The notes under the pieces are model-generated. The model worked only from the letters and a program-made list of their open reading frames with translations. It searched no databases and was not told the origin of the DNA. A stretch of 22,918 bases of DNA from Psammoneis japonica (lineage: Eukaryota), in contig QPGO01000145.1 in assembly GCA_008632985.1 (NCBI GenBank), positions 186,001-208,918 of the forward strand. Reading direction: 5' to 3'. How positions within the stretch are numbered: position 1 is the first letter of the stretch; each line of letters begins with the position of its first letter. Of this stretch, positions 1-20,082 are shown piece after piece. Position numbers and translations under genes: made by a program.

Positions 1-1240
1 CCACCAGTGCACACCACATGCAAATGTGGGAGGGCACTCATTGTCCTTGAGTGCCTTGGCAAGTTTGGCTTTGCGGCGCTGTTGACTTTTTTTCTCTTGC
101 TTGAGCATTTGCAAAACACAAGCGCAAATCACACGTTTTGCCTGTGCGCTGCCTTTGTCCTTGCTGCCAGTCCAGTGATGAGGAAGGGCCAGTAGATTCT
201 CTTGGGCATTTCTTGCTGTTTTCATGGTCTCCCTCTTGTTTGAAGGTGCAGGAGCAAAAACAATGGCAGCAGCTGGGTTCTGCCAAAAGAAAGAGTTGAA
301 ATTGGGTCAGCTGATGAGTTGCACCACATGAAACTCATGTTGTCATTTTGACCACAATGAGAGCAATCAGAAAACAAGCAGTTTGAAGCAAGGTTTGCAT
401 GTGACAGGATTGGCCCTCCACAAGCAGCAACAATGTTGTCAACTTGCAACTCAGTTCAACTTGTGGTCAAGAATCTCCTCTCAGCATCATCCAAAGTGAG
501 CGACAGTCATGTGTTGCAATTGCAGAGCTTGCGCCACATCAAGGTTAATTGGGCTGTGAGAACTTGTCCCTGCATGTGTCCAGCACCTGCTCTGTGTGGC
601 AGCTTGCACTCTCTGACATGCTTGCAAACCCCCTTGGCTGTGTGTGAGTGGAGTTGCAGAAGGAGCGCCCATCTGTGCAAGGTTTCTAGCTGCACCTTTT
701 TTCTTCTGCTGTGTTCTCACTGTCAGTTGCTGCCAGCACCAGCCTGACCAAGTCTGTTCCCTCTGTCTGTTTGGTGGGCCATGCTCTTCAATCAGGCTGA
801 TGCTGGTGGTGACAACAGATGAGTGGCCCAGTGGAGAAAGTTCATAGAGTCATCAGACAGATGGGAAAAGTGGCTGAGTTCTCCTTTGCCAATCCCACAA
901 ATGACTGGGGGGAGAGTGACTGCTGGGCTTGTGGGACATGAAGCTGACTCTGAAGTTGCCAAACTCTGAAGTCTTTGACTGCTTTCAAAAACATCCAAGT
1001 GTGCTCTTGTCACATCTGAATCTTGGTGCAGAGGGGAGCCATTCTCCTTTTTTTGTGCACTTGCCAGAGAGCATTGCACTTCATGCTGGCTGTTCAAGTC
1101 CAAAGGCTGCTGCTCCTTCTTCTTCATTGTGGCAAAACAAGAAGTGTCACTCACAGTTTTTCCTTGTCTGTGCAACACCGCAAGTGAGACCACATGCCCC
1201 ATCTGCATGATCCTTGAACGGCTGCACTTCTTGATGGGAG
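1..1240. other. TpA/CpG-depleted, TpG/CpA-rich degenerate block (left, truncated by window edge)
   Basis: Only about 4 TpA counted in 1-1240 and few CpG. Normal TA/CG content resumes abruptly at ~1245 (ttctaggacatcgcccgtagggtgtagtagg). ORFs here are short, Cys/His-rich and Tyr-free. Confidence 0.85.
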
Positions 1241-1588: not shown

Positions 1589-2575
1589 CTAGTCGCTTTC
1601 GACTTTCTTTTCGGTTTCAACATTTACTGATAGCTTTTCTGCCATCGACTTTTCCACCTGGGCGACACCATTGTCAGAGTTGTCGGAAGTGGCATTATCG
1701 CCCTCTGCAACTGCATCATTTTTTGATTCTGTCTCTTGAAGATACCTTTCATACTGCTTGATCATCATATCGGCCCAATAGCGGGCAATCAATAAACGAA
1801 CGATTCGCCGGTCTCCTCTAAAGCTCGGTCCAGTCGCCGTGGCATCATCCGGATCGCGTTCTTGACCAGCATCCGCATCACCCGCTTGTTCCTCTTCGTC
1901 GTCGTCGTTGTTGGACGCAGAAGTCGACGGACCACGCTCTAACAGTTTGGGTCCTCCCAGTGTTTTCAATCGTTCCAGCCATACGGCAAGCACTTGTTCA
2001 TTTACGCTTCCGTCAGAATTTGCTATGTCCAGAGTAAAGCCTCCTCGTCGATCAAACAAGAGCGCTTCTTCAAAGTCCACCTCGGCTTTTCCTCGTGCGT
2101 CTGTTTTGTATTCCGTCATTTTAAACTTGGATACTTGCTCCACCACCGTGCACAACACTACCGCATAAGCCGAATGGATTCCATACTGTGAGTTGAGACG
2201 TTCTCTAATTCCAGATCGCGGCATTTGAAAAATCTTTCTCAGCACAACGCCGCCTTGCTGTCGACACCATTTCTCCAATGCTTCGCTGTGCTTTTCCCAA
2301 AATTCCTTGTACGTCTTCATTTCCTTTTTCATCTTGTATCGCAGCCGAACGCGATCACCCCACACCTGATCACGCATATCCGGTGGCCACGGGCTCTGTT
2401 GCAGGGCTGACACTTCGGCTTGAGCCGCGTCGGTTTCAAAGTCCGAAATCGAATTGATAAGACCCGTAATGCCGTCTGGATACAAATGTGGAAAGCCACA
2501 GCAGGCGCAAGATCCACCACTCACATACTCAAACATGGTCTTGTCCACCACCCAGTTGTCCTGAAAACGAGGCAT
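1589..2575 (-). CDS. Hypothetical protein, ~328 aa, apparently single exon (MPRFQDNWVVDK...KKVESD)
   Basis: Long ORF in normal-composition DNA with natural amino-acid usage including Tyr, an N-terminal CACCGFPH motif and acidic linkers. Start chosen at ATG 2575 because the upstream extension to 2728 runs into the repeat beginning at 2682. No family recognised. Confidence 0.8.
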   Translation of the reverse strand: MPRFQDNWVVDKTMFEYVSGGSCACCGFPHLYPDGITGLINSISDFETDAAQAEVSALQQSPWPPDMRDQVWGDRVRLRYKMKKEMKTYKEFWEKHSEALEKWCRQQGGVVLRKIFQMPRSGIRERLNSQYGIHSAYAVVLCTVVEQVSKFKMTEYKTDARGKAEVDFEEALLFDRRGGFTLDIANSDGSVNEQVLAVWLERLKTLGGPKLLERGPSTSASNNDDDEEEQAGDADAGQERDPDDATATGPSFRGDRRIVRLLIARYWADMMIKQYERYLQETESKNDAVAEGDNATSDNSDNGVAQVEKSMAEKLSVNVETEKKVESD

Positions 2576-2681
2576 GTTGTACAACAGTGCTTGACTTTCC
2601 TTCTTTTTTATGAACAGTGCACCTGCTACCACAATCAGAAAAAATTGCCAGTTACGAGTTAACGAGTGCTGCGTGGGTGAA

Positions 2682-5625
2682 CGGTGAATTGTGCTCAGCA
2701 CCCATTTCAACCACACCTGACCCCTCATCTATCATGAGCTTGTTGATGCCGAACAACAACAGAACAGGCTAACAGAATGCCAAACGTTTGTTTCTCGCCA
2801 CATCATTTACTTTGTAGCAGCAGCAACAACAGTAATTGGGTGTGGCAGAGGAGGCAGAAGAAGGAGGCTTGTCATTGAGGCCGAGTCGATTCCAAACTGC
2901 GCAAGGAAGGGCAGAGGCGCCGATGTGTGGGGTGGTGGTGAAGAAGCATCTCCAAAAGCGGGTTCACACAAGAGACCCCAGCAGAGCCCAACAAACAGGG
3001 AGACAGTGGCAACAGTGACATGGAAGATGATGTGACCAATGACCCCATGCTGATGCCCACTCGTGGATGCTGTGAGAGAGCCAGATTGGCGCAGCAGAGG
3101 TCTCTCACTGGGTGAGACCATGATCATCATGCCCACATGGGTGCTGTGAGAGCCAGGTTGGCACAGGTCTTGCTGGGTGAAGACAACAAAGACAACTGAG
3201 GGCATGCAGTGGGTGAGTCACCACATGCTAAGATGGCCTCACAATGACAGTTTTCCAGCTCCAAAACCTGCCTCACATTTGGGGCAGGAAACAGAGTTCG
3301 GAAAAGTTGACAACCCCAGCCAGAAGAGCCCACTCACAACCTGCCAAGCAGAGTTTTAGAGCTCTGGCTCAAAGCAACACAAGTGCCACTCTCTGATGAC
3401 AGGCATGACTCCTGTGCTGGTTGATGCAGGTGGCAGCAAGCAAGTGACTGGTGATTGGCCTTTCTGGCCACTGTGCAGGTTGGGACAAAAGTTGGAGAAC
3501 AAGGAGCAAGATTTGGGGGACATCTTCAGAAGTGAGACTGTAAAAGAAAGTCACATGGAATTTGTGCTAAAACAGTCTGTCAATCATTGCAATTGGGGCA
3601 TTTGGGAAAATGCTGGAAAGATCCTGCGTGTTTTCTTGTGTGCACAAATTGCACTGGGAAAACCCCCAAGTGCACTGGCAATCAGACCGCCTTTGACAAT
3701 CTCACTTCCAAAGATGCCCCCCAGATTGGAGCTTCAGAGGCAGCAGGCAAGGAGTTGGCAAAAGAAGTGGCATCTTGTCCCAAGAAAGCCAGCGCGAGAA
3801 TTTGGTTGTTGGTGTGCTGTGATGAAGCTGGAGATGTCCAAGGAGCATCTCCAAAAAATGCTCCCTCTTTTTCTTTCAGCTGTGGTGGCTTGCTGACCTT
3901 CTTCAGGAAAAGCCCAGGCAGACTTTGGCATGGGGAGTTTCTTGCTCTTTCCCAAGTGTGATGTTGAACCATCTGGCATGGATGGCATGGGCATCAGAGT
4001 TTTGAAAAACATGCTTGCTTGACAACTTGATTGTTCTAGCTTCCTTGACTTGGGTCCAATGCCGTGGCTCCATCTGGTGTCATTTGGATGGCTGGGAATG
4101 CCAGCATCCACGTGCAAAAATAAAGTCCGCATGATTGTGTTGCAAACAGTTTGATCAAGACTTTTGTCTGCTCTGCCATGAGTGTTGTCAAAGCAAAAGA
4201 CTTGCTTGTTGAAGAAGAATGCAGACAATGCCGAAATGTTGCCTGCTTGCTTGAGGCAACATCCAGAACTCAGAACTGCCCACGCATTCTGAACACATCA
4301 GCCATTCCAACGCATGCAATGGGCTTCTTAGATTCAACATGAACCCCCAGTTTTTCTACCCCATTCGAGTCTCGCAACTTCACAGCACCAGCACTGACAG
4401 CGGGAACAGGATGGACCGTGCAAAAGCATGTCTGCAATTTTTGCTGCAGGAAGGAAACCCCAACTTCGACTCTAGACTGTTGCAAGTTCACAGGATCAAC
4501 GACCAGGAGGAATGTGAGCTTGTCGAGAGGAGGCAAAATCGTTCCGAGTCCACGTCAATGGTGATGCACTGAGCTGTGGTGAAAGGGGCGTGTGTTCTTG
4601 AATGTCTTCATTGGCGGGGGGCAAAGAAGAGACTTCAATCACAACAATGTCCTTTTCTGCTGGGAGTGGATTTTTAAACTCTGCATCATGAGGATTCACC
4701 AAGTGCACCCCGACAACACCCAATTGGAGAATCGATTCCGGAAGTTTGATGAGTGCGCAATGTTTGTCCGTCGGTGAATTTGTCGACACCAACAGAGCGC
4801 ATTGAGCAGTGCCAACGATGGTGTTCTTTGCTCCACCAAAATGGTCAAACCATGTGTGTGTTGCTTGTTTGTTGGGGTCATGCAAGTTGTGATTGTTGGC
4901 ACCAATCACGGGAACTTCACAAATTAGATTCGATGACAGAGGATCAGCAGCAAGCTGCAGATCCATCACTGCCGCTTCGATTTGGTTGACGGACTCAACC
5001 ATCCATTGTTCAAACCATGTCATTGGCTTGTTGTGTGGAATTGTCGGCATGTTCATTGCTGTGGCAGCCAGCTGCCGTTGATGAAGACTGCAGAAAAGAG
5101 TGATGCAGGGATCATAGAAACTTGAGGTTTTGAGGTTCTCAGAAGAGAGGCAGTGTGCATTCTTGTGCAAGAGATTCAAGCTGGTTGCGGAGCAAACGAC
5201 TCCATGCTACAGTGTCGTGCATTGACAGAGCTGCCTTGAAGGCTTTGTTGGACAACGTCGTGGCAATGATCAGAGCATGATGAAAGATGGAAATTGCAAC
5301 ACGGCCATGCGGCGTTCTCTTCAAGTCTTGAGTCTGTGCAAGACTGTGACCTGTGAAATGCGCTTGTCAGTTTTCGCACACAAGTTTGCTTCATGGCAAT
5401 TTTGTGCATCTGCACCACATAATTTACAGCGACATGCGTCTTGCTGCTTTCCGACTCTCGCCTGTGACCTCCGTCCGACAAAAACACGGTGAAGCACGGG
5501 AATGCATCCAACAATGGCGGTGCCAATCATCATTGATTCTGCCATTTTTCACCATTCTCCCATGTTTCAGTGAGCTCTTGATGGCAATGAAAGAGGGCTT
5601 TGGTGCTTGCATTGTTTCTGTTGGC
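2682..5625. repeat. Repeat copy A (long form) of a locally duplicated degenerate element
   Basis: 2682-3883 aligns with 6061-6947 (with gaps) and 5365-5625 aligns with 6945-7223, e.g. tgtgctcagcacccatttcaac and aagcacgggaatgcatc..acaatggcggtgccaat occur in both. Confidence 0.85.
4270..5179 (-). pseudogene. Decayed coding sequence of unknown family inside repeat copy A
   Basis: Overlapping minus-strand ORFs 4496-5179 (227 aa) and 4270-4536 read as protein-like (WFEQWMVESVNQIEAAVMDLQL, DIVVIEVSSLPP, LLVVDPVNLQQSRVEVGVSFLQ) but are frameshifted and nearly Tyr-free. No domain recognised. Confidence 0.4.
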
Positions 5626-6060
5626 ACCACCCATCTGCCAAGGGGGGCACCCGCTGTTTGCTGCAAAGACTTTGAACAATGGTGTCAATGGCTGAACTGA
5701 TCAAACTCAGAGGAAACCCACAAATTCAGACATGATCCAGTGTGGGATGAGATGATTCTTTCATGCTTTCAAACAATTCAAGGATTGACTGGAGACAATG
5801 TGAAGGAAATCAACAAATGTTGTGCAAGACTGTGTGCAGAGGCCTCTGGTGCAACACTGGACCAAAAAGGAAAGTGCCATCCCAGCAAGCAGCGCAACCT
5901 GTGCTGTTGCCACCAATCTTGACAGGAATGCTGTCAATGATGGCATTTTCAAGAAGATGCCAGAGAGAAAACACTCAAAATCTCTTGCACAGCCACCCCG
6001 TAAACCCACATGCCGGGTGGACACAGCGGTCAGATTGCCGGTGTCATTTTTCAAGTTGAT

Positions 6061-7223
6061 CGGTGAGTTGTGCTCAGCACCCATTTCAACTGCACATCAT
6101 GAGCTTGTTGATGCTGAACAACAACAGAGCAGGCCAACAGAATGCCAAACGTTTGTTTCTCATCACATCATTCACTTTGCAGCAACAACAGCAATTGGGT
6201 GTGGCAGAGGAGGCAGAAGGAGGAGGCTTGTCATTGAGGCCAAGTCTTCCAAGCTGCATGGGATCGCGGCTAAAAGAAGCATTTCCAAAAGCGGGTTTTG
6301 CACAAGAGGCCCCAGAAGAGGCCAAGGAACAGGGAGACAGTGGCAACAGTGACACAGAAGATGATGTGGCCAATGACGACCATGATGATGCCCACTCATG
6401 GATGCTGTGAGAGCCAGGTTGGTGCAGGTCTTCTTGCTGGGGTGAGACCATGATGATGCCCAAATGGGTGCTGTGAGAGCCAGGTTGGCACAGGTCTTGC
6501 TGAGTGAAGACAACAAAGACTGCTGAGTGCCTGCAGTTGGTGAGTCACCACATGCCAAGATGGCCTGACAATGACAGTTTCCCAGCTCCAAAAACTCACT
6601 TGTGGCAGGAGCCAGAATTCAGAAAAGTTGACAACCCCAGCCATTGAGGTGCCCGCTCACCTGCCAAGCAGAGTTTGAGAGCTCTTTTTCAAAGCAACAG
6701 AAATGCCACTCTCTGTTGACAGACACAGCTTCTGTGCTGGTCATTGCAGGCAGTGACGGGCAAAAAGTTGGAGAACAAGGAAGCAAGATTGGAGCTTCAA
6801 AGGCACCAGCAGGCAAAGAGTTTGCGAAAGAAGTGGCACCTTGTTCCCAGAAAGCCAGCTTGGGAATTTGGTTGTTGGTGTGTTGTGAAGAAGCCAGGGA
6901 TGTCCAAGGGGCATTTCCAAAACAAATGCACCCTTTTTTTCAGCTGTCAGTTTTCACACACAAAATGTGCTGCCTCCATTTGCGTTGTTGCAATTTTGCA
7001 GTGCCAGCATCATGTGCAGCAGAAATTTGCAGCATTGAGTCTTGCTGCTTTTGAACTGCCGCCTCCAACATCCAACAAAAAAACATGGCAAAGCACGGGA
7101 ATGCATCTGACAATGGCGGTGCCAATTGTCATTGATTTTGCCACTTTCATCACTCTCTCATGTTTCAGCGAGCTTCCAATGGCAATGAGACAGAGCTTTG
7201 GTGCTTGCATTGTTTCCTTTGGC
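6061..7223. repeat. Repeat copy B (internally deleted form of copy A), same orientation
   Basis: Collinear with copy A but lacks ~214 bp (A 3509-3722) and ~1.48 kb (A 3884-5367). Confidence 0.85.
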
Positions 7224-7557
7224 TGCACTTTCACTCACATTTTTTTCTCTGTCTGTGCCATTTTGACATTCCAGCAGGCATGTCACACAGTGTGTTTGCT
7301 TTTGTAGAGTGCCGTTGCAGCTCAAGTTGTCTTTCATCAACCAAAGCTCATGAAAGTGGTTCAAACATTGAACATTTGATGGTGTTGCAGTGTGGACATT
7401 CAAGGTGATGGGAGGGTCACAAATGGCTTGCACTCAAGAGAAATTGAGCTCACAACATTTGTCTCTCTCATGAGTTGGATTTTGAACCAGGTGTTGCAGC
7501 CCATTGAGTGAAATGTTGCACGACAGACATGCCAGAAGGCAGAGTTGAATGTGAGCA

Positions 7558-9423
7558 ATGAAGAGATTGAATTTGTGGTGCACAGAAGGGCAACATCAAC
7601 TTCTGTCTGTTGGCAAAGGGAGTGACTTGAATGGAGTGACTTGCTCTCAACTTGTGCCAATGCTGGCACAAAGCAAAGAAGAGAGCAGAAGCTTGGACAC
7701 AATTTCAAAGGAACTGCATGTGAGAATGAAGGCAGCATTGTTGAATGATCAACCAGAATGCTCACCATTGACAGATGAATGACATCCACTCAGCCATTGC
7801 TGTGCTTCATCCTGCAACTCCTTGTTGTCAAACAAAGTGTTGGCTTGGGCAAAGCGCCGGGCATTCTAAATGACTGAGTTGATTGTTCAAGCAATGAGAC
7901 AGCTGCAGCAAATCCACAAGATGCCAGTGTCAACAAATTGGCTTTTGATGGCTGCACACCTTTCCAAGAAAAGCACAAGCATGGCAGCACAGCACCTGTT
8001 CCAACAAGAAGTGCTGTTGGCACTGATGCTTGCTGTGGCATGCCTGGCTCAACAGATGACCAATCCTCCACCAGCAGCAAAAAAGATGTCAAAGCAAATG
8101 GGGGCTGGGTGTCATGATGTGAAAGCCAATTGCAAGAAGGCTGGTGACCAGGAGAGTGGGAGTCAATCATTTGAACTTTGGAAAAGGAAGAAACAGAGTG
8201 ACCACATCATCAAGTTCTGCCAACACTCAAAAGAAGGACTCAGAGTTGGTGCTGAGTCAAACAGGGTTTGCAAAGTTGAGGATCTGGCAACAGGGACATT
8301 TTTTATTCACCCAGCTAGAGTGTGGAGCAGTGCAACTCTTGAGAGTCAACGCAATGCACCCAAACAACCAGGCATCTGCAAGATGTGTTTGCCCGTGCAC
8401 CAAGGGCCCGTCTGAGCATGTTTCTGTGTGGATTTTCCAAAAACTGGGCCAGAAGAGCCCATGAGTGAGCTGAACAAAGCACTGGCCAACAATCCAGTCA
8501 TGTGGGAAAAAGCAAAAAAGAACTGCCCTTGTGGTTGTGTGTTAGAGTTTTTTGACTTTGTTTTGTGGCAAGGAAGCATCAGTTGGTGGAGAGCCAAGCC
8601 ACAGTTTTGAGTGCCACAAGCAAACAAAAGATGCTTCTTGTGTTGCTTAGAACTGACCAAATGACTTGCTGTGTTTGGACAGCATCATTTCAGCTTCAGC
8701 ATTTGTGTGGGTTCTGCATGCCACAACCGCAACTTGTTGAGGCTCAAAACCTGTCCAAGTGCTGTTGTGAAACTTTGGCATGCTTGTTCAACTTGATTTG
8801 TTGTGGTTCAATCAGTTGCAAGCACAAAACTTTTGTGCACATTCCATGAGAACTTTCCCGACATCTGCCATGACACATGCTTTTTGCAAGTTGTTGAAAC
8901 AATGACAACACACAACAGCTCAAAACTTCAAGCTTTTGCAAAAACTTGTTGCCCCATCATGACTGATCTCCTCACCTTGTCCGCAAAACAAACATGGCAT
9001 CCACAAGAGCACTGGAACAAATTGCCCACATGTGTCCCTGGCACATCATCTGTCTGCATTCTCTGACAATCCATGAGGTGACTGGGTGTGCAAAGTGTGT
9101 GTGCATTGGCTGACACACAGACTCATGACAGAGAGCAAAATGACACCGCAGACTGCACAGGTGGAGTAAGCAGGAAAGTTAAAACAGACAGTTTTGACCA
9201 CAGGCACCAGCACAAAAAAATCTGCATGAAGAAACAAAACATCTGTAAAGATGAAGAAGATCTTGAAAACATTGAACTCTGCAAAAATCCTCCAAGCAAG
9301 TCAAAAATGCTGTTTCAACCATGGCACATTTTTGACACGGCAAGCACACCTTGCAGAGATCCAATTGTTGAGGCATCAACTTCGTTGAACAAAAACAATG
9401 CACAGTTGTGTTCACATTTTTAG
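7558..9423 (+). pseudogene. Possible decayed coding sequence of unknown family
   Basis: A chain of plus-strand ORF fragments (7558-7782, 7870-8415, 8428-8610, 8803-9066, 9088-9423) with charged, protein-like stretches (ESRSLDTISKELHVRMKAALLND, RVCKVEDLATGTFFI). No motif identified, and ORF length is inflated by loss of TAA/TAG. Confidence 0.3.
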
Positions 9424-9471
9424 CTGTTTGTTTGTTTTTGGTGCTGTGGAGGTTGCTTTGTCATTGACAAA

Positions 9472-10988
9472 ATGATGGCATGCAACAAATTTTCAACTTG
9501 TCCAAACCCTTGTTGGGGACAAAATGATGATCTGGGGATGCTGTTGCATTGCAAATCATTCACACACTGCAGAGCATTGTGATCACTGTGGACATTGTGT
9601 CTTCTTGACATCAGTTTGCTCCTGAAGTCAGTCACAAGAACACAATGAGACGGCAAACATCACACCATTTTATGAACATTTCAGTGACCCAACAAATGAA
9701 GGGTCATTTTCACTTTGAAAGGCTCTGCTGTTTGACAAACATTTAGCCTCATGGCTTGCCAGCAATGATTGCACATTTCACTCATCACACACTGTGATGA
9801 AGCCACTGAAATGGACGTTTGAACACCACAGTGTTCACAAGGAGGCTCATCATTGAGTCTTCCAAGCTGCATCATCAATCAATCCATGCGTTCACACCTG
9901 TTGCACCCTTTCCACTCTCTTTGTCATCCAGCCACCAACCAGCAGTCCAGTGGCACAATGTCCAGTTGGTGCAGTCCAACTGCAAGGCAACCGATGCTTG
10001 ATTGAACAGAATCACCAACACTGCACCCAATGCTTGATCCAACAAAAAAAATCACCAACACTGCACCCCCAACACATGATGCATGATGCCAATGCTGTCT
10101 CCAGCTCTGTTTCTTCCCTGCTGAAAAACCAACCCCACAGCCAACATTGGAGCCAATCTTAACTTGCGGTGGAGAGTGCAGCCAGACATTGCAGATGTGC
10201 TGGTGCATTGTTCAGGTGTGCATCACGACCATTGTCATGATGGCATCATGCAAGAAATTTTCAAATTGTCCAAACCCTTGTTGGGGAAAAAATGATGATC
10301 TGTTGATGCCGTTGCATTGCAAATCATTCACACACTGCAGAGCATTGTGATCACTGTGGACATTGTGTCTTCTTGACATCAGCTCACTCCCAAAGTCAGT
10401 CACAATGCAATGACGGCAAACATCACACCATTTTGTGAACACCTCAGTGACCCAAATGAAGGGTCATTTTTACTTTGAAAGGCTCTGCTGTTTGACAAAC
10501 ATTTGGCCTTGTGGCTTGCCAGCAATGGCTGCACATTTCACTCATCACACTTTGTGATGACGTCACTGAAATTGACATTTGAGCACCATCATCATGTTCA
10601 CAAGGAGGCTCATCATTGAGTCTTCCAAGCTGCATCATCAATCAATCCATGCACTCACACACCTGTTGCACCCTTTCCACTCTCTTTGTCATCCAGCCAC
10701 CAACCAGCGGTCCAATGACACAATGTCCAGTTGGTGCGGTCCAACCGCAAGGCAACCAATGCTTGATCCAACAGAATTGCCAACACTGCAACCAATGCTT
10801 GATCCAACAAAATCACCAACACTGCACCCCCAACACATGATGCATGATGCCAATGCTGTCTCTGGCTCTGTTTCTCCCCAGCTGAAAAATCAATTGGAGC
10901 CCATCTTGACCAGCAATGGAGAGTGCGACCAGACATTGCAGACTGCACTGGTGCATTGTTCAGGTGTGCATCATGACCGTTGTCATGA
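9472..10988. repeat. Tandem duplication, two copies of a ~765 bp unit (9472-10236, 10237-10988)
   Basis: Both units start atgatggca..tgcaa.aaattttcaa.ttgtccaaacccttgttgggga and end ggtgcattgttcaggtgtgcatca.gacc.ttgtc, with high identity throughout. Confidence 0.92.
10741..10830 (+). pseudogene. Remnant of a Pro/Thr (PTxxPT) repeat coding region; second copy at ~9976-10069
   Basis: Translates PTARQPMLDPTELPTLQPMLDPTKSPTLHP from a 36-bp internal repeat. PMLD fits ancestral PTLD (ACG->ATG). Confidence 0.5.
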
Positions 10989-11678
10989 GACAGACCTTCT
11001 TGGCATCATGTCTTCATGCTCTGACACATGTGCTCCTGCAGGCTGAAAGACAAAAGAGCAATGCCGGATGAATGTTGGACTGAGGGATGCTGGAGGGATG
11101 CTGAACAATGCTCTCTGGCTTGTTGCTGGACATCACCTGGTTGACTCATCTTTCTGCTGTCAGCTTTGAAATGTCTTGGGTTTGGATGCAACCACCATGT
11201 GGTTGAACAGTGTTGCTGACTTTGAAATGAGGCAACACACTTGAGGGAGTTTGTGTGTTGGATTTTTGACACTCAAGCCTCTTTCAGTGCATTCCCACCC
11301 AAGATGCTGATGGCTGATGATGGGGTGGGTGCTGCCTCTCAGCATGACCTGACCAATCCACTGCACTGCTGTTTCAGAGAAGCCTTGGTGCTCAACAAGG
11401 CAGGGCACAGTGCTGCACTTTTTCAAGATGCAGCCTGGCAAGACTCATGGCTGGCTTGACAAATGTGATGGGTCAGCTGCCCCATGTGCAGAGCATGGTG
11501 CAAAGCCAGGGGTGGTTGACTCTCATTGCCTTCAGAGGAGACAACAAGGAAAACTGCCATGTGCAGCTCACATGAAAGGACAAGTCAGTTGGTGGTGCCA
11601 GGACTGGCAATTGTGACATCATCAAGCATGCTGATGTCAAAACAATCTGGTCCTTTCTTGCCCTCCTCCAGGGTTGGA

Positions 11679-13110
11679 TCAACAGGAATGCAGATGGTTT
11701 GTTGAGTGGAGCAAGTGCACATGTGCAGCACTTGCACATTTGTGCAACACCTCAAGGAAAAACAGTGTGAAGAAAAAGCTGAGACACGGTCCTGGTGAGG
11801 AATGTGGGTGGCACAAATGGAAGGGCTCATCAAGAATGGCATCATGATGGATTTGTTGAGTGCTGGCCTCATCCCTTGGATCCCAAAAGTCATCTGCTTG
11901 CACTGCTGCTGTCATCTCATTGGAGCTGTGGCTGTGCTTCCACACAACATTGCCAGATGGGTGGCACATGGTCATGCTGCTGGAAGCAGGGCAGAAGCTC
12001 TCATTGAGCACCAAAGCAAAAAACTGCAAGAAGGCATCTGCTCTTGCTCTGCAAACCATCATGCGCTCAGGTCAAAGCTGTGCATGTGCACCTTCAAGAT
12101 GCTGCAGACAGAAGGTGATGCCACCTGAGGCTGCACATGACCCACCATGAGATGAGCCAAAGAGCCTTGAGGATGAAGTGGGCCAGGGCAAGGTTGCCAT
12201 TGAAAGTGCCACATTGCTCCTTTGGCTTTCATGACACAGGACAGTCAAGTTGTCTGGAAAATGACCTGCACCATTCTCACAACTTGAGCTCATGAATTGT
12301 TGAAGGAGCAGCACCAAAGGCTGCCAGCATGGAAAAGATCAAGAAGGCTTTGTGGAGGTCTCAGGCAGGCAGTTGAAACCCAGATGAGAAAGTGGGCATG
12401 GTCATTGCCAAAGTGCTCACCTCCCAGCTGGGCATGGATTGGTTGTTCCTGCCCACCACATTTGTCATTTAAAGCCACACCCAACTCCCATTGTGACACA
12501 CCAGTGCACACCTCCTGCTGGCAGGAGCTGCTTCACTCACTCCCTGCTTTTCATTTGCATGTGCATTGACTTGCTGCAGGGGGCAAGCTGACATGAAAAA
12601 TGTGTCATGAAAAGTTGGGCTCTTGCACCACATGACTGTGGAAGAAAAGAGCTGGGTGTCATGGGTCTTGGGCAGATTTGCCATTTGGTCATCCAGCCCT
12701 GCAAAACTGTCATGACTGAGCTGGATCCCAGACAGAGTTTGCTCACCTTGAGGTCATTGAACAGCCCAGGAGATTTGCTGAAGAACCCACTTGATTCTGG
12801 ACTGGCAGTGTGGACTTGGGGGGCACTTGAAACAACATTTTTTGAGACAGAAGGAGAAGGACAAGTCAAATGGAAAAGTTCAATGGAAAAGAAAAAGGAA
12901 TTGGCCACACAACCTGTGGAAGAAACAACGCAAGAATGATTAAAGTCAATGTTCAATGCACAGTGGAAACAATTGCTTTCGCCCCCCTTGCTTTCCCCAG
13001 CAGACGTGATGCAGGTTGCATGTGCAATCAGCACGGCCATGCTGTCATTGTCGATGAAGGAAATGCAGAAAGGCTGTTTGGTGCCCCAGGTGCCAAAGTT
13101 CTGAAATTGA
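11679..13110 (-). pseudogene. Heavily mutated former protein-coding gene of unknown family
   Basis: Successive minus-strand fragments (12469-12684, 12290-12511, 12072-12317, 11679-12062) read as globular protein with His/Cys where Tyr would be natural (GSSHGGSCAASGG, NDKCGGQEQPIHAQLGGEHFGNDHAHFLIW). Possible relic intron at 12914-12991. Confidence 0.45.
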
Positions 13111-13302
13111 TCAAGTCGTTGGATGAAAATGGTTTAAAAATGCCAGGTTCGGGAGTTGGGCAAAATACAATCTAGAGCTAGTCGCACCGGCGCAGGCTTT
13201 CAAGCTTTTCGCTACTCATACTTGTCATCAGGACTTACTTAATTATGTACATGAAAAAGATAACACCTCCATTGAAACAGAAAATTCTTACAGCAGAGTC
13301 CT

Positions 13303-14669
13303 CTAGATCTTGCCACTGATTATCAATTCCTCGACATACGTCTTGACGTCGGCGGGAACATCGTTCCTATGCAACTGCAAAAGAATTTTTTGGACTAATT
13401 GAAGAGAGATGTTGAATTCCAGCATACTCAAGAACGGCACTGAGATGAATTTGATCCAGTTCGGGCATGTCATCAATTGCTTAACCCCGTACTCATGTGC
13501 CCTTGCCTCTGCATTGGTTATGAGGCTCACAATTTCAGCTGCCACCCAATAGTTATATTCCGGTGGATCGCACAGTGGCGGCAAAATAACTTCCAAATCA
13601 CCAACAACAAGGTTGTGTCTCCCTATAAGATCAAAGAGAGGTTCTAGAATCTCTTTGAAAGAAGTGAATGGCGGATGCAACAGATCGGGCAGGAACAGAT
13701 GATGTATCGTTTTCATGTCCACCTCCCTGTTGCGGAAGGGTGACAGCAAGTCCTCCACAAACTCCTTTAGGGATCCGCTATGATGACTATGTTCTGCTGC
13801 GTGCACAAAAACCTGAAACAGGCGATGGTATGCAGGACGCTCAGCCGCAAGCTCGGCAAACGCGCGTATCCATGGTCTAGCCCCTTTCTTGAGTTTATAA
13901 TCGCCATATCCACGTCTGTAGAACCAACAGTTGGTACTAGTAGAAAGCTCTTTTGAAACAAGGAGGACCTCCTCCGCCGATCGTCCAGCTACACACAACC
14001 AATCATATAGAACTTTGACTTGAACCTCACATATGTCCTGGTTTGTAGCGGACGCAATAGCACGTGCCAGCTTCTTTGCGGAGTCGACGTCCATTGATTC
14101 CACGAGCCTCCCCCCTCCCCTGTGAGCGATGGCGACAATTCTTCAATCCTTGAAGTGGGAATCGACTTTAGCAGATCGACATCTTCCATCGATGCAACAT
14201 GGTTTTTGCACAGGCTCACGATTTCCGGGACCCGGTCCTCCAGAAGCAAAAAGTCTGCTGTGCGCAGCAGCGCCACTGCCTCATCCATGTCTGATGCAAC
14301 AAGCCTTGAGCGGACAAACGACTTCTCTTCCACAAGAGACAGCAGCGCATTAAGAGCGTCAATGCTGCATCATTGGGGCAGCATGATGTGGCTGCGGTCA
14401 GCGCAGTTGTCTCTGTCTCCAATGTTGGTTGAGATCTTGCGGTCGAGAAAAGGAATCCTCTGGCACACTTCATGGCTCACTGCAAATTTCCGTCTTTCAC
14501 CACTTGAATCTGCGACCTTGAAGGTATAAAAGGTGTCGTCTCCACGAAATCGCTTCTGAGGCGACTGAGCCACACCTTCGCTGCTATCCATAGACCGTTT
14601 CTGAGATGCTGGTGGTTCTCCCCGCTTTGGAGGCGCTGTGCCTTGGGACTGGCGACCCTGACTGCTCAT
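13303..14669 (-). pseudogene. BTB/POZ-like domain protein gene disrupted by an in-frame TGA (14370-14372) and a frameshift in a G-run (~14110-14120)
   Basis: ATG 14669 runs ...KFAVSHEVCQRIPFLDRKIST...HIMLPQ*CSIDALNALLSLV...AVALLRTADFLLLEDRV in one frame, a pattern typical of BTB/SKP1-like folds. Coding continues in a shifted frame (RLVESMDVDSAKKLARAI...IISGKI, stop 13303). No GT-AG intron covers either lesion. Confidence 0.65.
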
Positions 14670-14962
14670 TCTGGATTCTTTCAAGGCGCGGCTAAAAGAC
14701 GAAGGTTAAGCGTCTTTGCGATAATGCAGTGAACCTCTTGTTTGTGCCTTTCTTCACACTTACTGTACAACGCCAACATTCTTTGCGGCTTCGACAGAGT
14801 GCTGAAGTTGAAATTGCCCCCTGCGCGGCGCGACTTGGCTTCAACTATCCTGCCCGCCGCCATCGCCATTGTTTTCTTGCTCGCGCTTACTGTATTTTCT
14901 CTCACGCACAGGCGCGAGCATGCGTTGAATTTTTAATTCTAGTTAATTCAGTACTGTAGAAG

Positions 14963-14970
14963 TATAAAAG
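14963..14970 (+). promoter_or_regulatory. TATA-like box (TATAAAAG) in the 483-bp divergent intergenic region
   Basis: Consensus match ~185 bp upstream of ATG 15153 in an AT-rich spacer between divergent genes. Motif only. Confidence 0.25.
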
Positions 14971-15152
14971 GAGACTTATGTGTATGGATGATTACGGTAT
15001 CAATATCGTGCAATTAATTTCTATTGCCTGACTATTGCCCTCGCAAAATCGCTCATCACCATCATCAGATTGAAGATGCGACATCACACATCACGCTTCA
15101 ATCGGCTTGAACTTCTCTCATAAACTCCAAAGGAACGAGAGGCAACAACACG

Positions 15153-17051
15153 ATGGCGTTGCAAGCTCGACATTGTAGCAGGGATTTCGCTAGTGCATCG
15201 GATTATTTAGACGATGATTGGGTTAATCTGAATAACACACGCTTTCTTGGTGGAGCAACTACGAGAAGTCGCCAAGCTCGAGATGATTCCGCTGACGACA
15301 TTCTGTTTGGAACCACAAGCGCATCAATGAGCACCGTTGAGAGCATAGAAGACACGACATCGCCAGCGATTGTATCAGATGATGAAGATAGTGGGTGGGT
15401 GGACGAGCTTTATCAGAGTAACGGCTCCCGACGTCCTACGCGGCACCGCGCTCCTTCAGAGAACTATTCAACCGTGGCCAGAAACGTCTCTCCCATAGCA
15501 GAGCATCAAGAGCAAGAGAGAATCGTGCTTGGAACGAGCGTCACCATCTTTGGAAGCAGCAAGCACTCTGGAAAGATTGGCACCTTTGTCAAATTTACAG
15601 AGAAGAGAGTTTGTGTGCAACTCGATGTCGGATCGCGGTACTTTGCGTTCAAGAATGTACGAACCGCAGACGGTCAAGCTGTTGTGCCACCTCAAGACCG
15701 CATGGCACGTATGACAACAGTGGTTGGTCATGAGAACAACTCGGTTGCTACGAATGATTCAAGACCTCCCGTCCAAGCCAGGGTCAGGATTGTTGGTGCC
15801 ACCCATCGAAACAAGACCGGTATTGTAATTAAGAACACCGAACATCGGGTCTGCGTTCAATTGGAACCAGAAATGATTCAACGATACTTTGCTCCGAAAA
15901 ATGTGCAAGTACTTGCCACTCCAAGCAATGAAGAATCTACTCGTGAACATACTGGAAATACGAGCACAATTCGAGCTGCTGTGCCACCTCATGACCGCAT
16001 CGCGCGTACTACAACTGCTGCTGCTCAAGACGAGAGTAACTCGGCTGCTACGAATGATTCACGACCTCCTGTCCAAGCTAGGGTCAGGATTGTTGGTGTC
16101 ACCCATCGAAACAAGACCGGTGTTGTAATTAAGAACACCGAACACCGGGTCTGTGTTCAATTGGAACCAGAAATGATTCAGCGATACTTTGCTCCGAAAA
16201 ATGTACAAATACTGGCCCCTCCAAGTAGTGAAGAATCTACTCGTGAAGATACTGGAAATATGAGCACAAGCAGTCGTCGGTACTCGTCTCCAAGCACCAC
16301 CGCTCCTCAGCCTCATGCAAGGCGCTCCACTTTGTCAACGACGTTGGCACCAAGAATCACCATCTCCTCCCGCCAACCTCGGAGTGTTTTATCATCAAAC
16401 CAGAACCATCACTTTCAGCTAGAGCCTACTAGTAGGCGCCCTGTTGTCATCACCAACGAGACAAGGACGAGGAATCGTCCGTCCTCGTCGACAAGCAGTG
16501 CCACTCCTCCAGTGGCGGTCATAGAAGAAGCACAGACAAGCCGATCAATCCGTCCATTGACTGCTTCTGCAACAAGAACCACCCCTCCTTCAATCGACGC
16601 GCCGAGGGTTCCCTCGTCAAGCCCAAACAATCGTTTTGATGCGGGACCTCCTGCGCAACGAAGGCAACAGTCATTTAGAAGAATTCCTGTCACCATGAGC
16701 GCCGAGAGAGTTTCGCCACCCACGTTTGCCCAGTCAAACTTGACCCGCGATATTCTTGCTGCATAAGGTGGCTTTTCTACTTTTCAACAACATGCGTTCA
16801 TGGCACGCTCTCAAGACCGCGCTCGCATTGTGGCGGATCGCGAGAGACGCATCCAAGAACTTCCCGTAGCAGTCATTGATGATCCAACGAAGTTGCCACA
16901 CAATCATCGGTCGTGTGCCGTTTGTCTCTGCACCTATAGCGCTGGAGATGAGCGACGAATGTTGCCGTGTTTTCATGGCTTTCATCGTTCCTGTGTCGAC
17001 CAATGGTTGCGAAGAAGCACGCAATGCCCCACTTGCCGGCAACACATTTAG
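15153..17051 (+). CDS. Protein with three KOW-like motifs and a C-terminal RING-H2 finger (putative E3 ubiquitin ligase), interrupted by in-frame TAA at 16764-16766
   Basis: KOW-like: GTSVTIFGSSKHSGKIGTFVKFTEKRVCVQL and 2x ARVRIVG.THRNKTG.VIKNTEHRVCVQLE. RING-H2: CAVC..LPCFHGFHRSCVDQWL..QCPTC. The 33 nt after the TAA keep the frame (GGFSTFQQHAF-MARSQ). Confidence 0.75.
15678..16269 (+). repeat. In-frame ~300 bp (100 aa) tandem duplication duplicating one KOW-like module
   Basis: 15781-15969 matches 16081-16269 at an offset of exactly 300, with looser similarity back to 15678/15975. Confidence 0.95.
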
Positions 17052-17610
17052 GTTACTATACAGAAAAAAGTCAGGGCTGCAAGAGGAGTTGGCGGATGTT
17101 CTTTTCCAAATATAGTTTCTCCCTTGTTGGCATCGAGTGTCCTCGGTCCTCTCCACAAAGCCTTTCTCGCAGTTGACTCCTGCTCTTGTTTCCTTCTTTT
17201 CGGTTTCTTCTAAAGAGCGCAATTTTGCGCACGGAAAAACGAACAAGATAGAGCTAAGTCACATGAATTACCATTAAGCAGTGCATAATCATGTGAAAGG
17301 CAGTGAACTTGTCGCTCTAGACTCTACAATACTCTATGGTGGCTTAGAAGTAAGTGTCCCGGGATGATCCCATGTCTGGGGGGTCGCGTCCGTCAGTTGA
17401 CCGTACGACTCTTCTGTCCTTCGTACGAGAGGTGTCATGCCCCTCGTCCCTCTGAAAAAAAAACGAGAAACGAAAACGGCCGCAACAGGCAATGACGAAC
17501 GCACATTCTTGCACATTGGGTGTTTCTCTATCTCGACTCTCTGTGTCTCTCTCTCTCCCTCTGCTTGAAACCCGTTCATCTTACGCTATTCTGATTCTGC
17601 TTAGGCTGCG

Positions 17611-18926
17611 ATGAAGCGTAGTCTAAGACGCTGTCTCTGTGTGACTGTTGTTGCAGCCGGATTGTTGTTGGTGCCAACCTTGGCATTTTCCTCGACTCGT
17701 GTCAACTTGCAGCAAAAACAACGCTTGGCTTCACCACATCATGTTGTGCGGAGGGCCAAACAAAAGAGTTCTTTTTGTATTCAAAAGGCGTCGGCTGTTT
17801 CCATGGAACCATCATCAGCCGAGAATCGCAGCATGAACGGTCTGATTGGCAAGCTCAAGTCAACTATTGTCAAGGTACGCATAGTAAGCGAGAACATGCG
17901 CACATCGTCGTGTAAGAATCTAATCTGATACTCACGACATGCGGATCGTTCTTTATTTATAATCAGGTTGGGATGATTGCTTTTATTGCCGGAATGTGTG
18001 TTTCACTTCCAATCACGTTGTTTCCCATTGAAGCTTTGCACCGCTTTAGATTGATCTCCAGGTTGCAACGAGAACGACTTAGTCTTAGAATGGGAACGTT
18101 TTGCGCTCGTTGGATGTTACGATTGTTTCCCTTTGTAAGATTGGATGTAAAGACAACGTCCTCGAAAGACCTTGAGCAACCAAGTGTATGGGTGTGCAAT
18201 CATCAATCCATGTTGGATGTGTTCATCATGTTGGCGGCAGACAAAAAGATGAGAGGCAAAAACAAACGGCCCATTAAGATTGTTTATGTAAGAAAAACAC
18301 GAATCATTGGTCCATATCACTGCAATACATTCTCCGATTGATGCGGGTATTCTCACATTTGTTGGTATTGCTTCTTTCAAACACAGTGGAAGGGACTGGA
18401 AGACAATCCCATTACAAACCTATTATTCACGCAGTGCGGTTTCATTTCAGTCGATATGGCTCCCAACAAGCCGGGAGAAGAAAATAAGTACGATCGAAAG
18501 TCCTTCAAGGCACTGTTGCAATCGACAAAGCAAGCCTTTGAGGAGGGTTTCGATGTTGGTTTGCTACCGGAAGGCCAGCCCAATCCGACGCCGGAAAAGG
18601 GACTCTTGCCGGTCTTTTCGGGAGCCTTTACGCTTGCCAAAATGAGTCGTCGACCCATTCAGCTCATGGCGCTGTGGGGAGCAAATCATGTATGGCATCC
18701 TCATGATGGACTCAAGGAGGCGAAGCCTACCGGACGACACGTCAAGGTTCGAGTGTACGGGAGCAGGGCGTTTGAGACGAGCCAAGAATTTGTAGAAACA
18801 TTCTCTACCATTGTAGGGTACTTTGGAAAGACTGGGTATGATTTGCCACGTTGGAAACAATGGATGGATGGGACGGAATGGAAGAAAAGGAATCTGAAAA
18901 CAGACGTTGCCGCTTCAGATGAGTGA
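17611..18926 (+). CDS. Plastid-targeted 1-acyl-sn-glycerol-3-phosphate acyltransferase (LPAAT, PlsC family), 3 exons: 17611-17874, 17967-18287, 18387-18926 (~374 aa)
   Basis: Catalytic NHQSMLD (NHxxxxD) and LPEG motifs. Two phase-0 GT-AG introns (17875-17966 gtacgc..tcag; 18288-18386 gtaaga..acag) join the frames. Signal peptide ending TLA|FSS followed by a basic Ser-rich transit peptide. Confidence 0.92.
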
Positions 18927-18943
18927 AACGCAGTTGTCAGGAA

Positions 18944-18960
18944 AGAGAGAGAGAGAGAGA
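18944..18960. repeat. (AG)8 microsatellite in the 3' region between convergent genes
   Basis: agagagagagagagaga seen directly. Confidence 0.8.
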
Positions 18961-19105
18961 TGCGTTCCGGTAATGATTCTGGAACAAGATATCTGCGAGC
19001 TAGAGACTATTCATACCGCGCTAGTAAATGGCAACAATTGTGTCTGTAAGTTGCGAAGGACATTCACAGTTTTCATAAAAAAAAAAGCACGAGGTCATAC
19101 TTTTG

Positions 19106-20072: not shown

Positions 20073-20082
20073 GAAATGCTCT

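What the first reader, a model, noticed from the sequence alone, without database searches (positions are those of the whole stretch)
2682..2890. Internal before/after control: the gene-proximal edge of copy A keeps TA and CG where copy B has CA/TG
Aligning A with B gives TA vs CA at 2770/6135, 2808/6173, 2815/6180 and 2833/6192. It gives CG vs TG at 2750/6115 and CG vs CA at 2796/6161 and 2882/6241. These are a large share of the point differences in this stretch. This part of A lies ~110-300 bp upstream of the ATG at 2575. The same sequence is therefore spared next to a gene and altered deep in the block, which suggests chromatin or position dependence, not sequence alone.
Basis: partly seen in the sequence, partly recalled or inferred. 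Interest (0 to 1): 0.85.

Follow-up and report, generated by a model that had tools for sequence, protein, structure and literature searches.

The report
Diatom DNA blocks stripped of TA/CG
The two repeat copies do differ as described, and the cause appears to be that this diatom's non-coding DNA lies in long blocks where nearly every TA and CG has been mutated to CA or TG, while genes and their edges are spared.

Summary
Six of the seven named sites are robust; 2815 depends on where a 6-nt gap is placed. Copy A holds the TA or CG at all 6-7 sites and copy B at none (binomial p 0.03-0.016).

The pair alone is weak evidence:
- There is no outgroup.
- CA/TA differences are no commoner per CA site than other C/T differences (12%).
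- The edge does not differ significantly from the deep part of the duplicate (p 0.19).

The context is what stands out. The window is diatom DNA. It holds gene islands with normal dinucleotide content, and blocks (1-1200, ~2900-13100, ~20400-end) where TA o/e is 0.05 and CG 0.20, CA/TG is 1.85, and GC is unchanged.

Two tests show that mutation caused this:
- A MITE inserted in copy A has TG/CA at 10 sites where most of its ~100 genomic copies have TA (5) or CG (5).
- In-block duplicates carry 33 CA-versus-TG discordant dinucleotides against 5.8 expected.

RIP is excluded, because it runs in the opposite direction and belongs to fungi. The closest known case is TpA-to-TpG/CpA hypermutation in Bigelowiella natans (2026 preprint). 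Copy A's edge lies in the 5' transition zone beside a gene. Position dependence is supported; the direction of change at the seven sites is not settled.

The parts
1589..2575 (-). Conserved diatom gene of unknown function. Its start codon is at 2575 and its dinucleotide content is normal (TA o/e 0.47, CG 1.18).
   Evidence: 271 homologues at E<=0.001; the best named ones are diatoms at 50-62% identity. The N-terminus MPRF is shared by 6 of 6 aligned homologues. No Pfam family. Composition.
2678..2900 (+). Copy A, gene-proximal edge. This is the transition zone of the block border: 5 TA, 6 CG, 44 CA+TG, and 0.20 of YpR steps are TA or CG.
2901..3873 (+). Copy A, deep part, with block-type composition (2 TA and 6 CG in 2901-3441). 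It is interrupted by a MITE.
3512..3726 (.). MITE-like element of about 215 bp with 36-nt terminal inverted repeats and about 100-fold depth. Copy B has the empty site at 6788/6789. This copy has TG/CA at 10 sites where most genomic copies have TA (5 sites) or CG (5 sites).
   Evidence: Inverted repeat 3511-3546 / 3691-3726, 83% complementary. Depth 834-6386 against about 59. Empty site. Variant contexts.
6057..6941 (+). Copy B, deep in the block: 0 TA and 2 CG in 6057-6257, 1 TA and 7 CG in 6258-6941. It is 81-90% identical to A, in direct orientation, about 3.38 kb downstream.
2900..13100 (.). Main TA/CG-erased block. For 3001-12800, TA o/e is 0.05 (32 observed, 666 expected from base composition), CG 0.20, CA 1.82 and TG 1.87; the other 12 dinucleotides lie between 0.86 and 1.24; GC is about 0.48. 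No recognisable coding content.
   Evidence: Of the 61 ORFs of 90 aa or more from all three blocks, 0 reach a Pfam cut-off.
1..1200 (.). A second erased block. It ends sharply at about 1200, on the 3' side of the gene 1589-2575.
   Evidence: share 0.04 at 1100-1199, 0.39 at 1200-1299.
20400..22918 (.). A third erased block, holding a 184-187 bp tandem array (about 21655-22400) rich in CA-versus-TG discordances.
4401..5500 (.). Sub-block where TA is nearly absent (6 TA in 1100 bp) while CG is only half depleted (o/e 0.56-0.69). The two losses are partly uncoupled here.
13100..20400 (.). Gene island with normal dinucleotide content (for 13201-20400: TA 0.55, CG 0.96, CA/TG 1.22), used as the internal control.

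Best explanation
The window is nuclear DNA of a diatom. It is built of gene islands with ordinary dinucleotide content and of long non-coding blocks. In the blocks the two self-complementary pyrimidine-purine steps, TpA and CpG, have been converted almost completely to CpA/TpG by transitions, with no change in GC content.

Copy B lies deep in such a block. The first ~220 bp of copy A lie in the roughly 500-bp transition zone between the block and the 5' side of the gene 1589-2575. The seven TA/CG-versus-CA/TG differences are the local trace of this domain-limited mutation.

Shown here:
- the composition of the blocks;
- their borders at gene ends;
- the direction TA/CG to TG/CA in a MITE copy;
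- independent decay of such sites in both members of in-block duplicates, after duplication.

Inferred:
- Two separate context-specific processes work in silent chromatin and are kept out of transcription units.
- One is deamination of 5-methylcytosine at CpG.
- The other is an A-to-G (T-to-C) change at TpA of the kind seen directly in Bigelowiella natans mutation-accumulation lines, possibly enzymatic adenine deamination.
- At the seven sites, A probably keeps the older state at most of them.
For: Composition and borders
- Block 3001-12800 has TA o/e 0.05, CG 0.20, CA 1.82 and TG 1.87. The gene island 13201-20400 has 0.55, 0.96, 1.19 and 1.25. All other dinucleotides and GC are alike in the two.
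- TA count in the block is 32 against 666 expected from base composition.
- Borders: the share of YpR steps that are TA or CG jumps from 0.04 to 0.39 at 1200 and from 0.11 to 0.41 at 13100. It falls gradually over 2500-3000.
- The gradient across the finding is 0.41, 0.31, 0.20, 0.06; copy B's homologous stretch has 0.04.

Direction of change
- In the MITE 3512-3726, table 3 lists 16 multi-contig variant sites. At 10 of them the window has TG/CA where 62-94% of read depth has TA (3557, 3566, 3626, 3643, 3652) or CG (3591, 3641, 3671, 3680, 3698). None runs the other way.
- Ten of the 13 majority differences fall on 28 TA/CG bases; 3 fall on the other 188 bases (odds ratio 34, p 6e-8).
- The MITE is absent from B, so these changes came after the A/B duplication.

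Decay after duplication
- CA-versus-TG discordant dinucleotides number 33 in seven in-block pairwise alignments against 5.8 simulated; 0 of 2000 simulations reach 33. A/B contributes 8. The genic duplicate D has 0.

At the finding itself
- A holds TA/CG at 6-7 sites and B at none.

Precedent and a second case
- In B. natans, 230 of 231 de novo mutations in two silent viral inserts were A-to-G or T-to-C, and the authors state that all of these fell on TpA. That genome has 124 TpA-depleted, CpA+TpG-enriched clusters (10.64898/2026.01.13.699255; abstract, Results and Discussion read).
- L007, a contig of another diatom, has a 1-kb island with 2 TA.
Against: - No outgroup for 2682-2890 could be read. 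Depth there is 59-68, the single-copy level.
- Per CA site, CA/TA differences are as frequent as CC- and CT-type differences.
- At non-CpG transitions in the edge, A holds the T/A at 8 of 10 (p 0.11). This fits ordinary C-to-T change in A as well as T-to-C change in B.
- The TA at 2815 sits in an A-only hexamer that looks like a copy of the neighbouring GCAGCA, which would make it a gain in A.
- Edge against deep asymmetry is not significant (p 0.19).
- Only 40 of 157 variant rows were shown, so the MITE counts come from the best-supported rows only.
- CA/TG discordances cannot tell CG ancestors from TA ancestors.
- Methylation, chromatin, transcription and present-day mutation were not tested.
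- Run X1 may be the data behind the assembly, so it is not independent proof of the sequence.
Confidence: 0.6

Rival explanations
1. Reversed direction at the seven sites. The common ancestor of A and B was already block-type DNA without these TA/CG. Copy A's edge lies outside the domain and has since gained TA (ordinary C-to-T at CA/TG) and a few CG, while any such gains in B were erased again. Position dependence still holds, but A is not a 'before' state.
For: - CA/TA differences occur at the same per-site rate as CC- and CT-type differences (12%).
- A holds T/A at 8 of 10 non-CpG transitions.
- The A-only hexamer with the TA at 2815 looks like a mutated copy of GCAGCA.
- A's edge still has CA/TG o/e 1.57, closer to the block than to genes.
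- My rough expectation is 2.5 TA gains and 1.2 CG gains, from about 41 CA/TG sites at 6% and 3% per lineage (an inference). This is not rejected: P 0.24 and 0.12.
Against: - The 8 CA/TG discordances in A/B show that the ancestor had further TA/CG sites, lost independently in both copies.
- The MITE shows losses in copy A after the duplication.
- Three CG gains in 220 bp would need the rarer T-to-C/A-to-G changes.
Confidence: 0.25
2. Ordinary neutral divergence of two old duplicates, with no position effect at these sites. Transitions and CpG decay are common everywhere, and the 6-7:0 asymmetry is a small-sample accident.
For: - Transitions outnumber transversions in all seven duplicate comparisons of the window (ts:tv from 38:24 to 13:1).
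- CpG sites differ more often in the pooled duplicates (30 of 70 against 159 of 914).
- Edge against deep: Fisher p 0.19.
Against: - The asymmetry has p 0.016-0.031.
- It falls exactly where the window-wide composition switches.
- B has 0 TA in 201 bp and 1 in the next 684 bp, which ordinary divergence does not produce.
Confidence: 0.08
3. Purifying selection on promoter elements of the gene 1589-2575 keeps TA- and CG-containing motifs in A's edge. B, which has no gene beside it, is free to decay.
For: - The stretch lies 107-315 bp upstream of a conserved gene's start codon.
- A and B diverge less here (7.7%) than further in (14%).
Against: - Selection on A cannot explain why B lost every TA.
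- It cannot explain the sharp switches at the 3' sides of genes.
- It cannot explain 10 kb almost without TA.
- No promoter motif was identified.
Confidence: 0.05
4. Fungal-type repeat-induced point mutation (RIP) of the duplicated copies.
For: The sequences are duplicated and differ mainly by transitions.
Against: - The organism is a diatom.
- TpA is erased (o/e 0.05), whereas RIP produces it.
- GC is unchanged.
- Stretches at single-copy depth in the block are affected like the repeats.
- A search for 'repeat-induced point mutation' plus 'diatom' listed 11 of 13 papers. None reports RIP in a diatom, judged by title and abstract only.
Confidence: 0.01
5. Technical artefact: modified bases in methylated blocks were misread during sequencing or polishing.
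For: The pattern follows the gene/non-gene split, as methylation would. The only read support, run X1, may be the assembly's own data.
Against: - Read-derived contigs at about 59-fold depth reproduce block stretches with 0 differences (6473-7120, 5928-6346).
- Misreading of a palindromic site would give a TG/CA mixture, not one fixed letter (an inference).
- An unrelated metagenome contig, L007, shows the same kind of island.
- The MITE family keeps TA/CG in most of its copies in the same data.
Confidence: 0.03

Closest known systems
TpA-targeted A:T-to-G:C hypermutation of integrated viral DNA in Bigelowiella natans (Mettrop et al., bioRxiv 10.64898/2026.01.13.699255; abstract, Results and Discussion read)
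   Same: TpA goes to TpG/CpA and to nothing else. It is confined to particular silent regions. The long-term signature is TpA depletion with CpA+TpG enrichment in clusters. GC does not fall.
   Different: - There, the change was seen as de novo mutations in two viral inserts, whose depletion is still mild (rho TpA 0.45 for the NCLDV insert). [quoted passage not shown]
- Here, only the end state and its direction in one MITE are seen.
- Here the depletion is near saturation (0.05) over blocks of 10 kb or more that make up over half of the window.
- No viral or transposase domains were found here.
- CpG is lost here too. A search of the preprint's main text finds 'CpG' and 'diatom' 0 times.
- The host is a stramenopile, not a rhizarian.
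Methylation-driven CpG decay (5-methylcytosine deamination) in silenced repeats, as in vertebrates, plants and methylated diatom transposons
   Same: CpG is depleted with a TpG/CpA excess, limited to non-genic DNA. CpG-type changes make up 12 of the 17 single-contig variants listed in the block.
   Different: It does not touch TpA. Here TpA loss is stronger than CpG loss, and it extends into 4401-5500 where CpG is only half depleted.
Repeat-induced point mutation (RIP) of ascomycete fungi
   Same: Transition mutation of non-genic or repeated DNA in a dinucleotide context, leaving compositionally distinct blocks beside genes.
   Different: RIP turns CpA into TpA, raises AT content and needs duplicated DNA in a fungal sexual cycle (recalled knowledge). 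Here TpA is destroyed, GC is constant and the host is a diatom.
ADAR-type A-to-I hyper-editing (prefers a 5' U)
   Same: An A preceded by T/U is read as G afterwards.
   Different: ADAR acts on double-stranded RNA in animals (recalled, and cited in the preprint's Discussion). Here the change is fixed in genomic DNA on both strands, with no strand clustering (runs test z -1.56).

Membership tests
RIP (fungal repeat-induced point mutation) | C-to-T at CpA produces an excess of TpA and AT enrichment in the affected DNA | tested here: not met
   TA o/e 0.05 in the block. GC is 0.42-0.53 in the blocks, as in the gene islands.
RIP (fungal repeat-induced point mutation) | The host is a fungus with the RID/DIM-2 machinery | tested here: not met
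   The neighbouring gene's named homologues are diatoms at 50-62% identity. The machinery itself could not be searched because no genome is held.
RIP (fungal repeat-induced point mutation) | Restricted to duplicated sequence | tested here: not met
   Stretches at single-copy depth (about 58-65; 3736-4236, 6575-7075) are as depleted as the repeats.
TpA-directed hypermutation (Bigelowiella natans type) | [quoted passage not shown] | tested here: met
   TA 0.05 and CA/TG 1.85 over 9.8 kb; three blocks in 22.9 kb.
TpA-directed hypermutation (Bigelowiella natans type) | The direction of change is TpA to TpG/CpA | tested here: met
   In the MITE copy, 5 sites have TG/CA where 62-92% of depth has TA, and none runs the other way. 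The same holds at 5770 in a second repeat. This rests on the 40 rows shown of 157.
TpA-directed hypermutation (Bigelowiella natans type) | A raised de novo mutation rate in the region, occurring in episodes | not testable with these tools
   Needs mutation-accumulation lines or population data.
TpA-directed hypermutation (Bigelowiella natans type) | The targets are foreign DNA (viral or transposon) | tested here: inconclusive
   One MITE and other high-copy stretches lie in the block. However, 0 of 61 block ORFs reach a Pfam cut-off, and ORF 4499-5206 has no homologue.
Methylation-driven CpG decay | CpG depletion with TpG/CpA excess, limited to part of the genome | tested here: met
   CG o/e 0.20 in the block against 0.96 in the gene island. 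In the MITE, 5 sites have TG/CA where the majority has CG.
Methylation-driven CpG decay | The depleted DNA carries 5-methylcytosine | not testable with these tools
   No methylation data. Only DNA contigs were laid.

The most novel reading that the evidence does not exclude
This diatom runs a chromatin-domain-limited mutator that erases both self-complementary pyrimidine-purine steps from all silent DNA: TpA by A-to-G/T-to-C and CpG by C-to-T. It works to near saturation and stops within about 100 bp of transcript ends. Most of the non-coding genome is therefore TA-free and CG-poor. If so, TpA-directed DNA editing, seen so far only on two viral inserts of a chlorarachniophyte, would be a general and old genome-defence or heterochromatin process within the SAR group (stramenopiles, alveolates, rhizarians). 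Border-straddling duplicates such as A/B would serve as natural before/after controls for it.
Probability: 0.45. Interest if true: 0.9.

Novelty: new variant of a known kind. Interest (0 to 1): 0.8.

Why it matters
A:T-to-G:C hypermutation at TpA has one report so far, a 2026 preprint on two viral inserts in one alga, and its enzyme is unknown.

- Ten-kilobase stretches almost without TA in a diatom, bounded by gene ends, would show that the process is not confined to one lineage or to viral DNA.
- It would also show that the process can reshape most of a genome's non-coding DNA without changing GC content.
- That gives a sequence-only marker (TA and CG low, CA/TG high) for silent domains in diatoms.
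- It is also a warning for annotation. Because TAA and TAG are missing, the blocks are full of long false ORFs: 61 of 90 aa or more in the blocks of this window.
- It makes the question directly testable: which deaminase or repair pathway does this, and what keeps it out of transcription units?

Tried and rejected
- Whole genome: none is held. Genome-wide copies, block statistics and deaminase genes could not be examined.
- Earlier notes of this scan: nothing by place or by sequence.
- Outgroup inside the window: the 765-bp tandem family at 9479-10988 shares only 39 bp with B (E 0.005). It is unusable.
- Outgroup from reads: depth over 2567-2900 is 59-68, the single-copy level. The bin 6074-6240 has 99.9 against 55.8 for B's own contig, so one more B-like piece may exist, but it was not among the listed rows.
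- Coding reading of A/B: B has an open frame (6060-6407) where A has three stops at the TA sites. With only 50 TAA/TAG against 554 TGA in six frames of the block, open frames there mean nothing. No reading frame shows synonymous-biased differences, by inspection.
- Pfam on 61 block ORFs: 0 at the cut-off.
- Homologue search of ORF 4499-5206: none.
- Rfam: 0 matches. tRNA scan: 0 genes.
- RNA runs: no RNA holder listed.
- Strand-coordinated editing clusters: the order of CA and TG along the block is random (z -1.56, as in the gene island).
- Polymerase-eta-like WA-to-WG mutation, considered from recalled knowledge: AA/TT are not depleted (AA 1.16, TT 1.24), so rejected.
- Literature: eight paper runs were made (24, 25, 30, 31, 37, 38, 52 among them). 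None listed a report of TpA-erased regions or RIP-like mutation in a diatom, judged by titles and abstracts. 'TpA' + 'hypermutation' + 'diatom' returned 0 papers.
- Supplements of the bioRxiv preprint are closed. Its tables S2 and S6-S11 were not seen.
Full report
**1. What the window is**

The ORF 1589-2575 (minus strand) has 271 homologues at E<=0.001. The named ones are diatoms (Seminavis, Fistulifera, Phaeodactylum, Mayamaea, Amphora, Odontella) at about 50-62% identity. All 6 aligned homologues start at the Met encoded at 2575. The window is diatom nuclear DNA, not fungal. No whole genome is held, and the scan has no earlier notes on it.

**2. The observation**

A (2678-3873) and B (6057-6941) are direct duplicates, 81-90% identical. 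In 2682-2890 against 6061-6249 there are 189 aligned columns and 15 differences, 13 of them transitions.

- The seventh, 2815, sits in an A-only hexamer if the 6-nt gap is placed as MAFFT places it.
- Contigs built from the reads of run X1 reproduce both copies without a difference (2400-2986 and 5928-6346). That run may be the assembly's own data.

**3. Is the pair more than chance?**

- A holds the TA or CG at 6 of 6 (or 7 of 7) one-sided sites (p 0.031 or 0.016).
- Normalised per target site, CA/TA-type differences (5 of 41, 12%) are no more frequent than CC- and CT-type ones (12.5%). Only CpG is raised (3 of 7).
- In the deep part of the same duplicate the split is 4 (A) to 3 (B). The contrast of edge against deep gives Fisher p 0.19.
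- At non-CpG transitions in the edge, A holds the T/A at 8 of 10 (p 0.11). This fits C-to-T change in A as well as T-to-C change in B.

Taken alone, the pair is suggestive and cannot give the direction of change.

**4. What lies around it**

Sliding windows show that TA and CG are almost absent from three blocks (1-1200, about 2900-13100, about 20400 to the end) and normal in two gene islands.

| Region | TA o/e | CG o/e | CA o/e | TG o/e |
|---|---|---|---|---|
| Block 3001-12800 | 0.05 | 0.20 | 1.82 | 1.87 |
| Gene island 13201-20400 | 0.55 | 0.96 | 1.19 | 1.25 |

- In the block, 32 TA are observed against 666 expected from base composition.
- The other twelve dinucleotides lie between 0.86 and 1.24 in the block, and GC is the same in both.
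- Only the two self-complementary YpR steps are missing, and the two other YpR steps have taken their place.
- Other diatom contigs carrying orthologues of the neighbouring gene have whole-contig TA 0.52-0.90 and CG 0.69-1.13. This holds for 23 of the 24 contigs of 3 kb or more; L035, with GC 0.62, is left out of this range.
- With TAA and TAG nearly gone (50 against 554 TGA in six frames), the blocks are full of long ORFs. The window's three blocks yield 61 of 90 aa or more, and none reaches a Pfam cut-off. ORF 4499-5206 has no homologue.

**5. Borders**

- The share of YpR steps that are TA or CG jumps from 0.04 to 0.39 between 1100-1199 and 1200-1299. It jumps from 0.11 to 0.41 at 13100. 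Both places lie a few hundred bp past the stop codons of minus-strand genes, so on their 3' sides.
- On the 5' side of gene 1589-2575 the share declines over about 500 bp (0.15-0.30 for 2500-2999, then 0.07).
- Across the finding the series is 0.41 (CDS), 0.31 (2576-2677), 0.20 (A's edge), 0.06 (A deep). B's homologous stretch has 0.04.
- A's edge is therefore a half-depleted transition zone, not an untouched control.

**6. Direction of change**

The ~215-bp segment 3512-3726 of copy A has 36-nt terminal inverted repeats and depth 834-6386 against about 59. B has a clean empty site for it. It is a MITE that inserted into A after the duplication.

- Table 3 lists 16 multi-contig variant sites in it.
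- At 10 of them the window has TG/CA where 62-94% of the depth has TA (5 sites) or CG (5 sites). None runs the other way.
- Of the 13 sites where the majority differs from the window, 10 fall on the 28 TA/CG bases and 3 on the other 188 bases (odds ratio 34, p 6e-8).
- In a second repeat, the window has CA at 5770 where 92% of depth has TA. At 5893 it has CG where the others have TG, which is one case the other way.
- Caveat: only 40 of 157 variant rows were shown.

**7. Decay after duplication**

- Aligned dinucleotides that read CA in one copy and TG in the other are the commonest adjacent double difference in every in-block duplicate. The genic repeat D has none.
- Simulating independent substitutions gives 5.8 such discordances for seven in-block alignments; 33 are observed, and 0 of 2000 simulations reach that number. 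A/B has 8 (6 of them in 2941-3441, P<0.0005).
- Each discordance marks an ancestral CG or TA that was resolved independently in the two copies. The A/B ancestor was therefore richer in such sites than either copy is now.
- This favours 'A keeps' over 'A gained' but does not prove it site by site.
- The order of CA and TG along the block is random (z -1.56), so there is no sign of strand-coordinated clusters.

**8. One process or two?**

In 4401-5500, TA is almost absent (6 in 1100 bp) while CG o/e is 0.56-0.69. The two losses are therefore partly uncoupled. Of the 17 single-contig variants listed in the block, 12 are CpG-type and one is TA-type. CpG decay is thus still going on, and few TA targets remain.

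**9. Comparison with what is known**

- RIP fails on direction, composition and host (membership table).
- CpG decay by 5-methylcytosine deamination accounts for the CG half of the pattern.
- For the TA half, the one precedent I found is a 2026 preprint on Bigelowiella natans (10.64898/2026.01.13.699255). I read its abstract, Results and Discussion and searched its main text.
  - In 15 mutation-accumulation lines, 231 of 302 nuclear point mutations fell in two integrated viral regions.
  - 230 of those were A-to-G or T-to-C, and the authors state that all of these GC-biased mutations fell on TpA.
  - 124 TpA-depleted, CpA+TpG-enriched clusters are reported.
  - An ADAT2-like deaminase is proposed.
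  - The main text mentions neither CpG nor diatoms (0 occurrences each).
- None of my literature searches listed a diatom report, judged by titles and abstracts.

**10. Elsewhere**

Of 24 metagenome contigs of 3 kb or more that carry an orthologue, one (L007, 47% identical orthologue) has a 1-kb island with 2 TA, 22 CG and 214 CA+TG, where the rest of the contig has about 35 TA per kb. L009 has a CG-poor stretch with only mildly lowered TA. The other 22 show nothing of the kind. The contigs are short and gene-dense, so this says little about how common the pattern is.

**11. Verdict**

- The direction of the process (TA/CG to CA/TG) is supported by the MITE and by the discordances.
- For the seven sites themselves the direction remains open; I put it at roughly 2:1 in favour of retention in A.
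- The RIP frame should be dropped.
- The mechanism is inferred, not shown: 5mC deamination plus TpA-directed A-to-G change in silent chromatin, kept out of transcription units.

Noticed in passing
L007:6001-7000: A metagenome contig from another diatom (its orthologue of gene 1589-2575 is 47% identical) has a 1-kb island with 2 TA, 22 CG and 214 CA+TG. The rest of the contig has about 35 TA per kb. This is the same kind of erased island in a different organism and data set.
   Followed up: partly
window 3512-3726: A MITE-like element of about 215 bp with 36-nt terminal inverted repeats and about 100-fold read depth. It is present in copy A and absent from copy B (empty site at 6788/6789, flanked by AGAT).
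   Followed up: yes
window 4401-5500: TA is nearly absent (6 in 1100 bp) but CG is only half depleted (o/e 0.56-0.69). TA loss and CG loss are therefore partly independent. The ORF 4499-5206 in this stretch has no homologue.
   Followed up: partly
window 1100-1300 and 13000-13200: The composition switches within 100 bp on the 3' sides of two minus-strand genes (share of TA+CG among YpR steps: 0.04 to 0.39, and 0.11 to 0.41). On the 5' side (2500-3000) the change is gradual. The borders may follow transcript ends.
   Followed up: partly
window 5407-5630 and 7011-7228: Direct repeats about 79% identical flank copy B on both sides, like the terminal repeats of a small degenerate retroelement. The stretch 5406-6073 is itself high-copy (depth up to 1642).
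   Followed up: no
window 9479-10988 and 21655-22400: Two tandem arrays lie inside the blocks: 2 units of about 765 bp at 88% identity, and about 4 units of 184-187 bp at about 74%. Both are rich in CA-versus-TG discordances (6, and 7 per unit pair).
   Followed up: partly
window 15153-16766: A 537-aa ORF in the gene island holds an internal 300-bp coding repeat (15674-15969 / 15971-16269, 89% identical). Its differences include ordinary TA and CG changes and no CA/TG discordance, so it served as the genic control.
   Followed up: partly
window 6074-6240: Read-contig depth is 99.9 where B's own contig has 55.8. One more B-like piece may therefore exist in the genome and could serve as an outgroup. 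It was not among the listed rows.
   Followed up: no
window 3000-13000 (whole block): Because TAA and TAG are almost absent (50 against 554 TGA in six frames), the blocks carry many long ORFs in all frames (61 of 90 aa or more across the window's three blocks). By my inspection of the translations these almost lack tyrosine. Gene finders would over-call here.
   Followed up: yes
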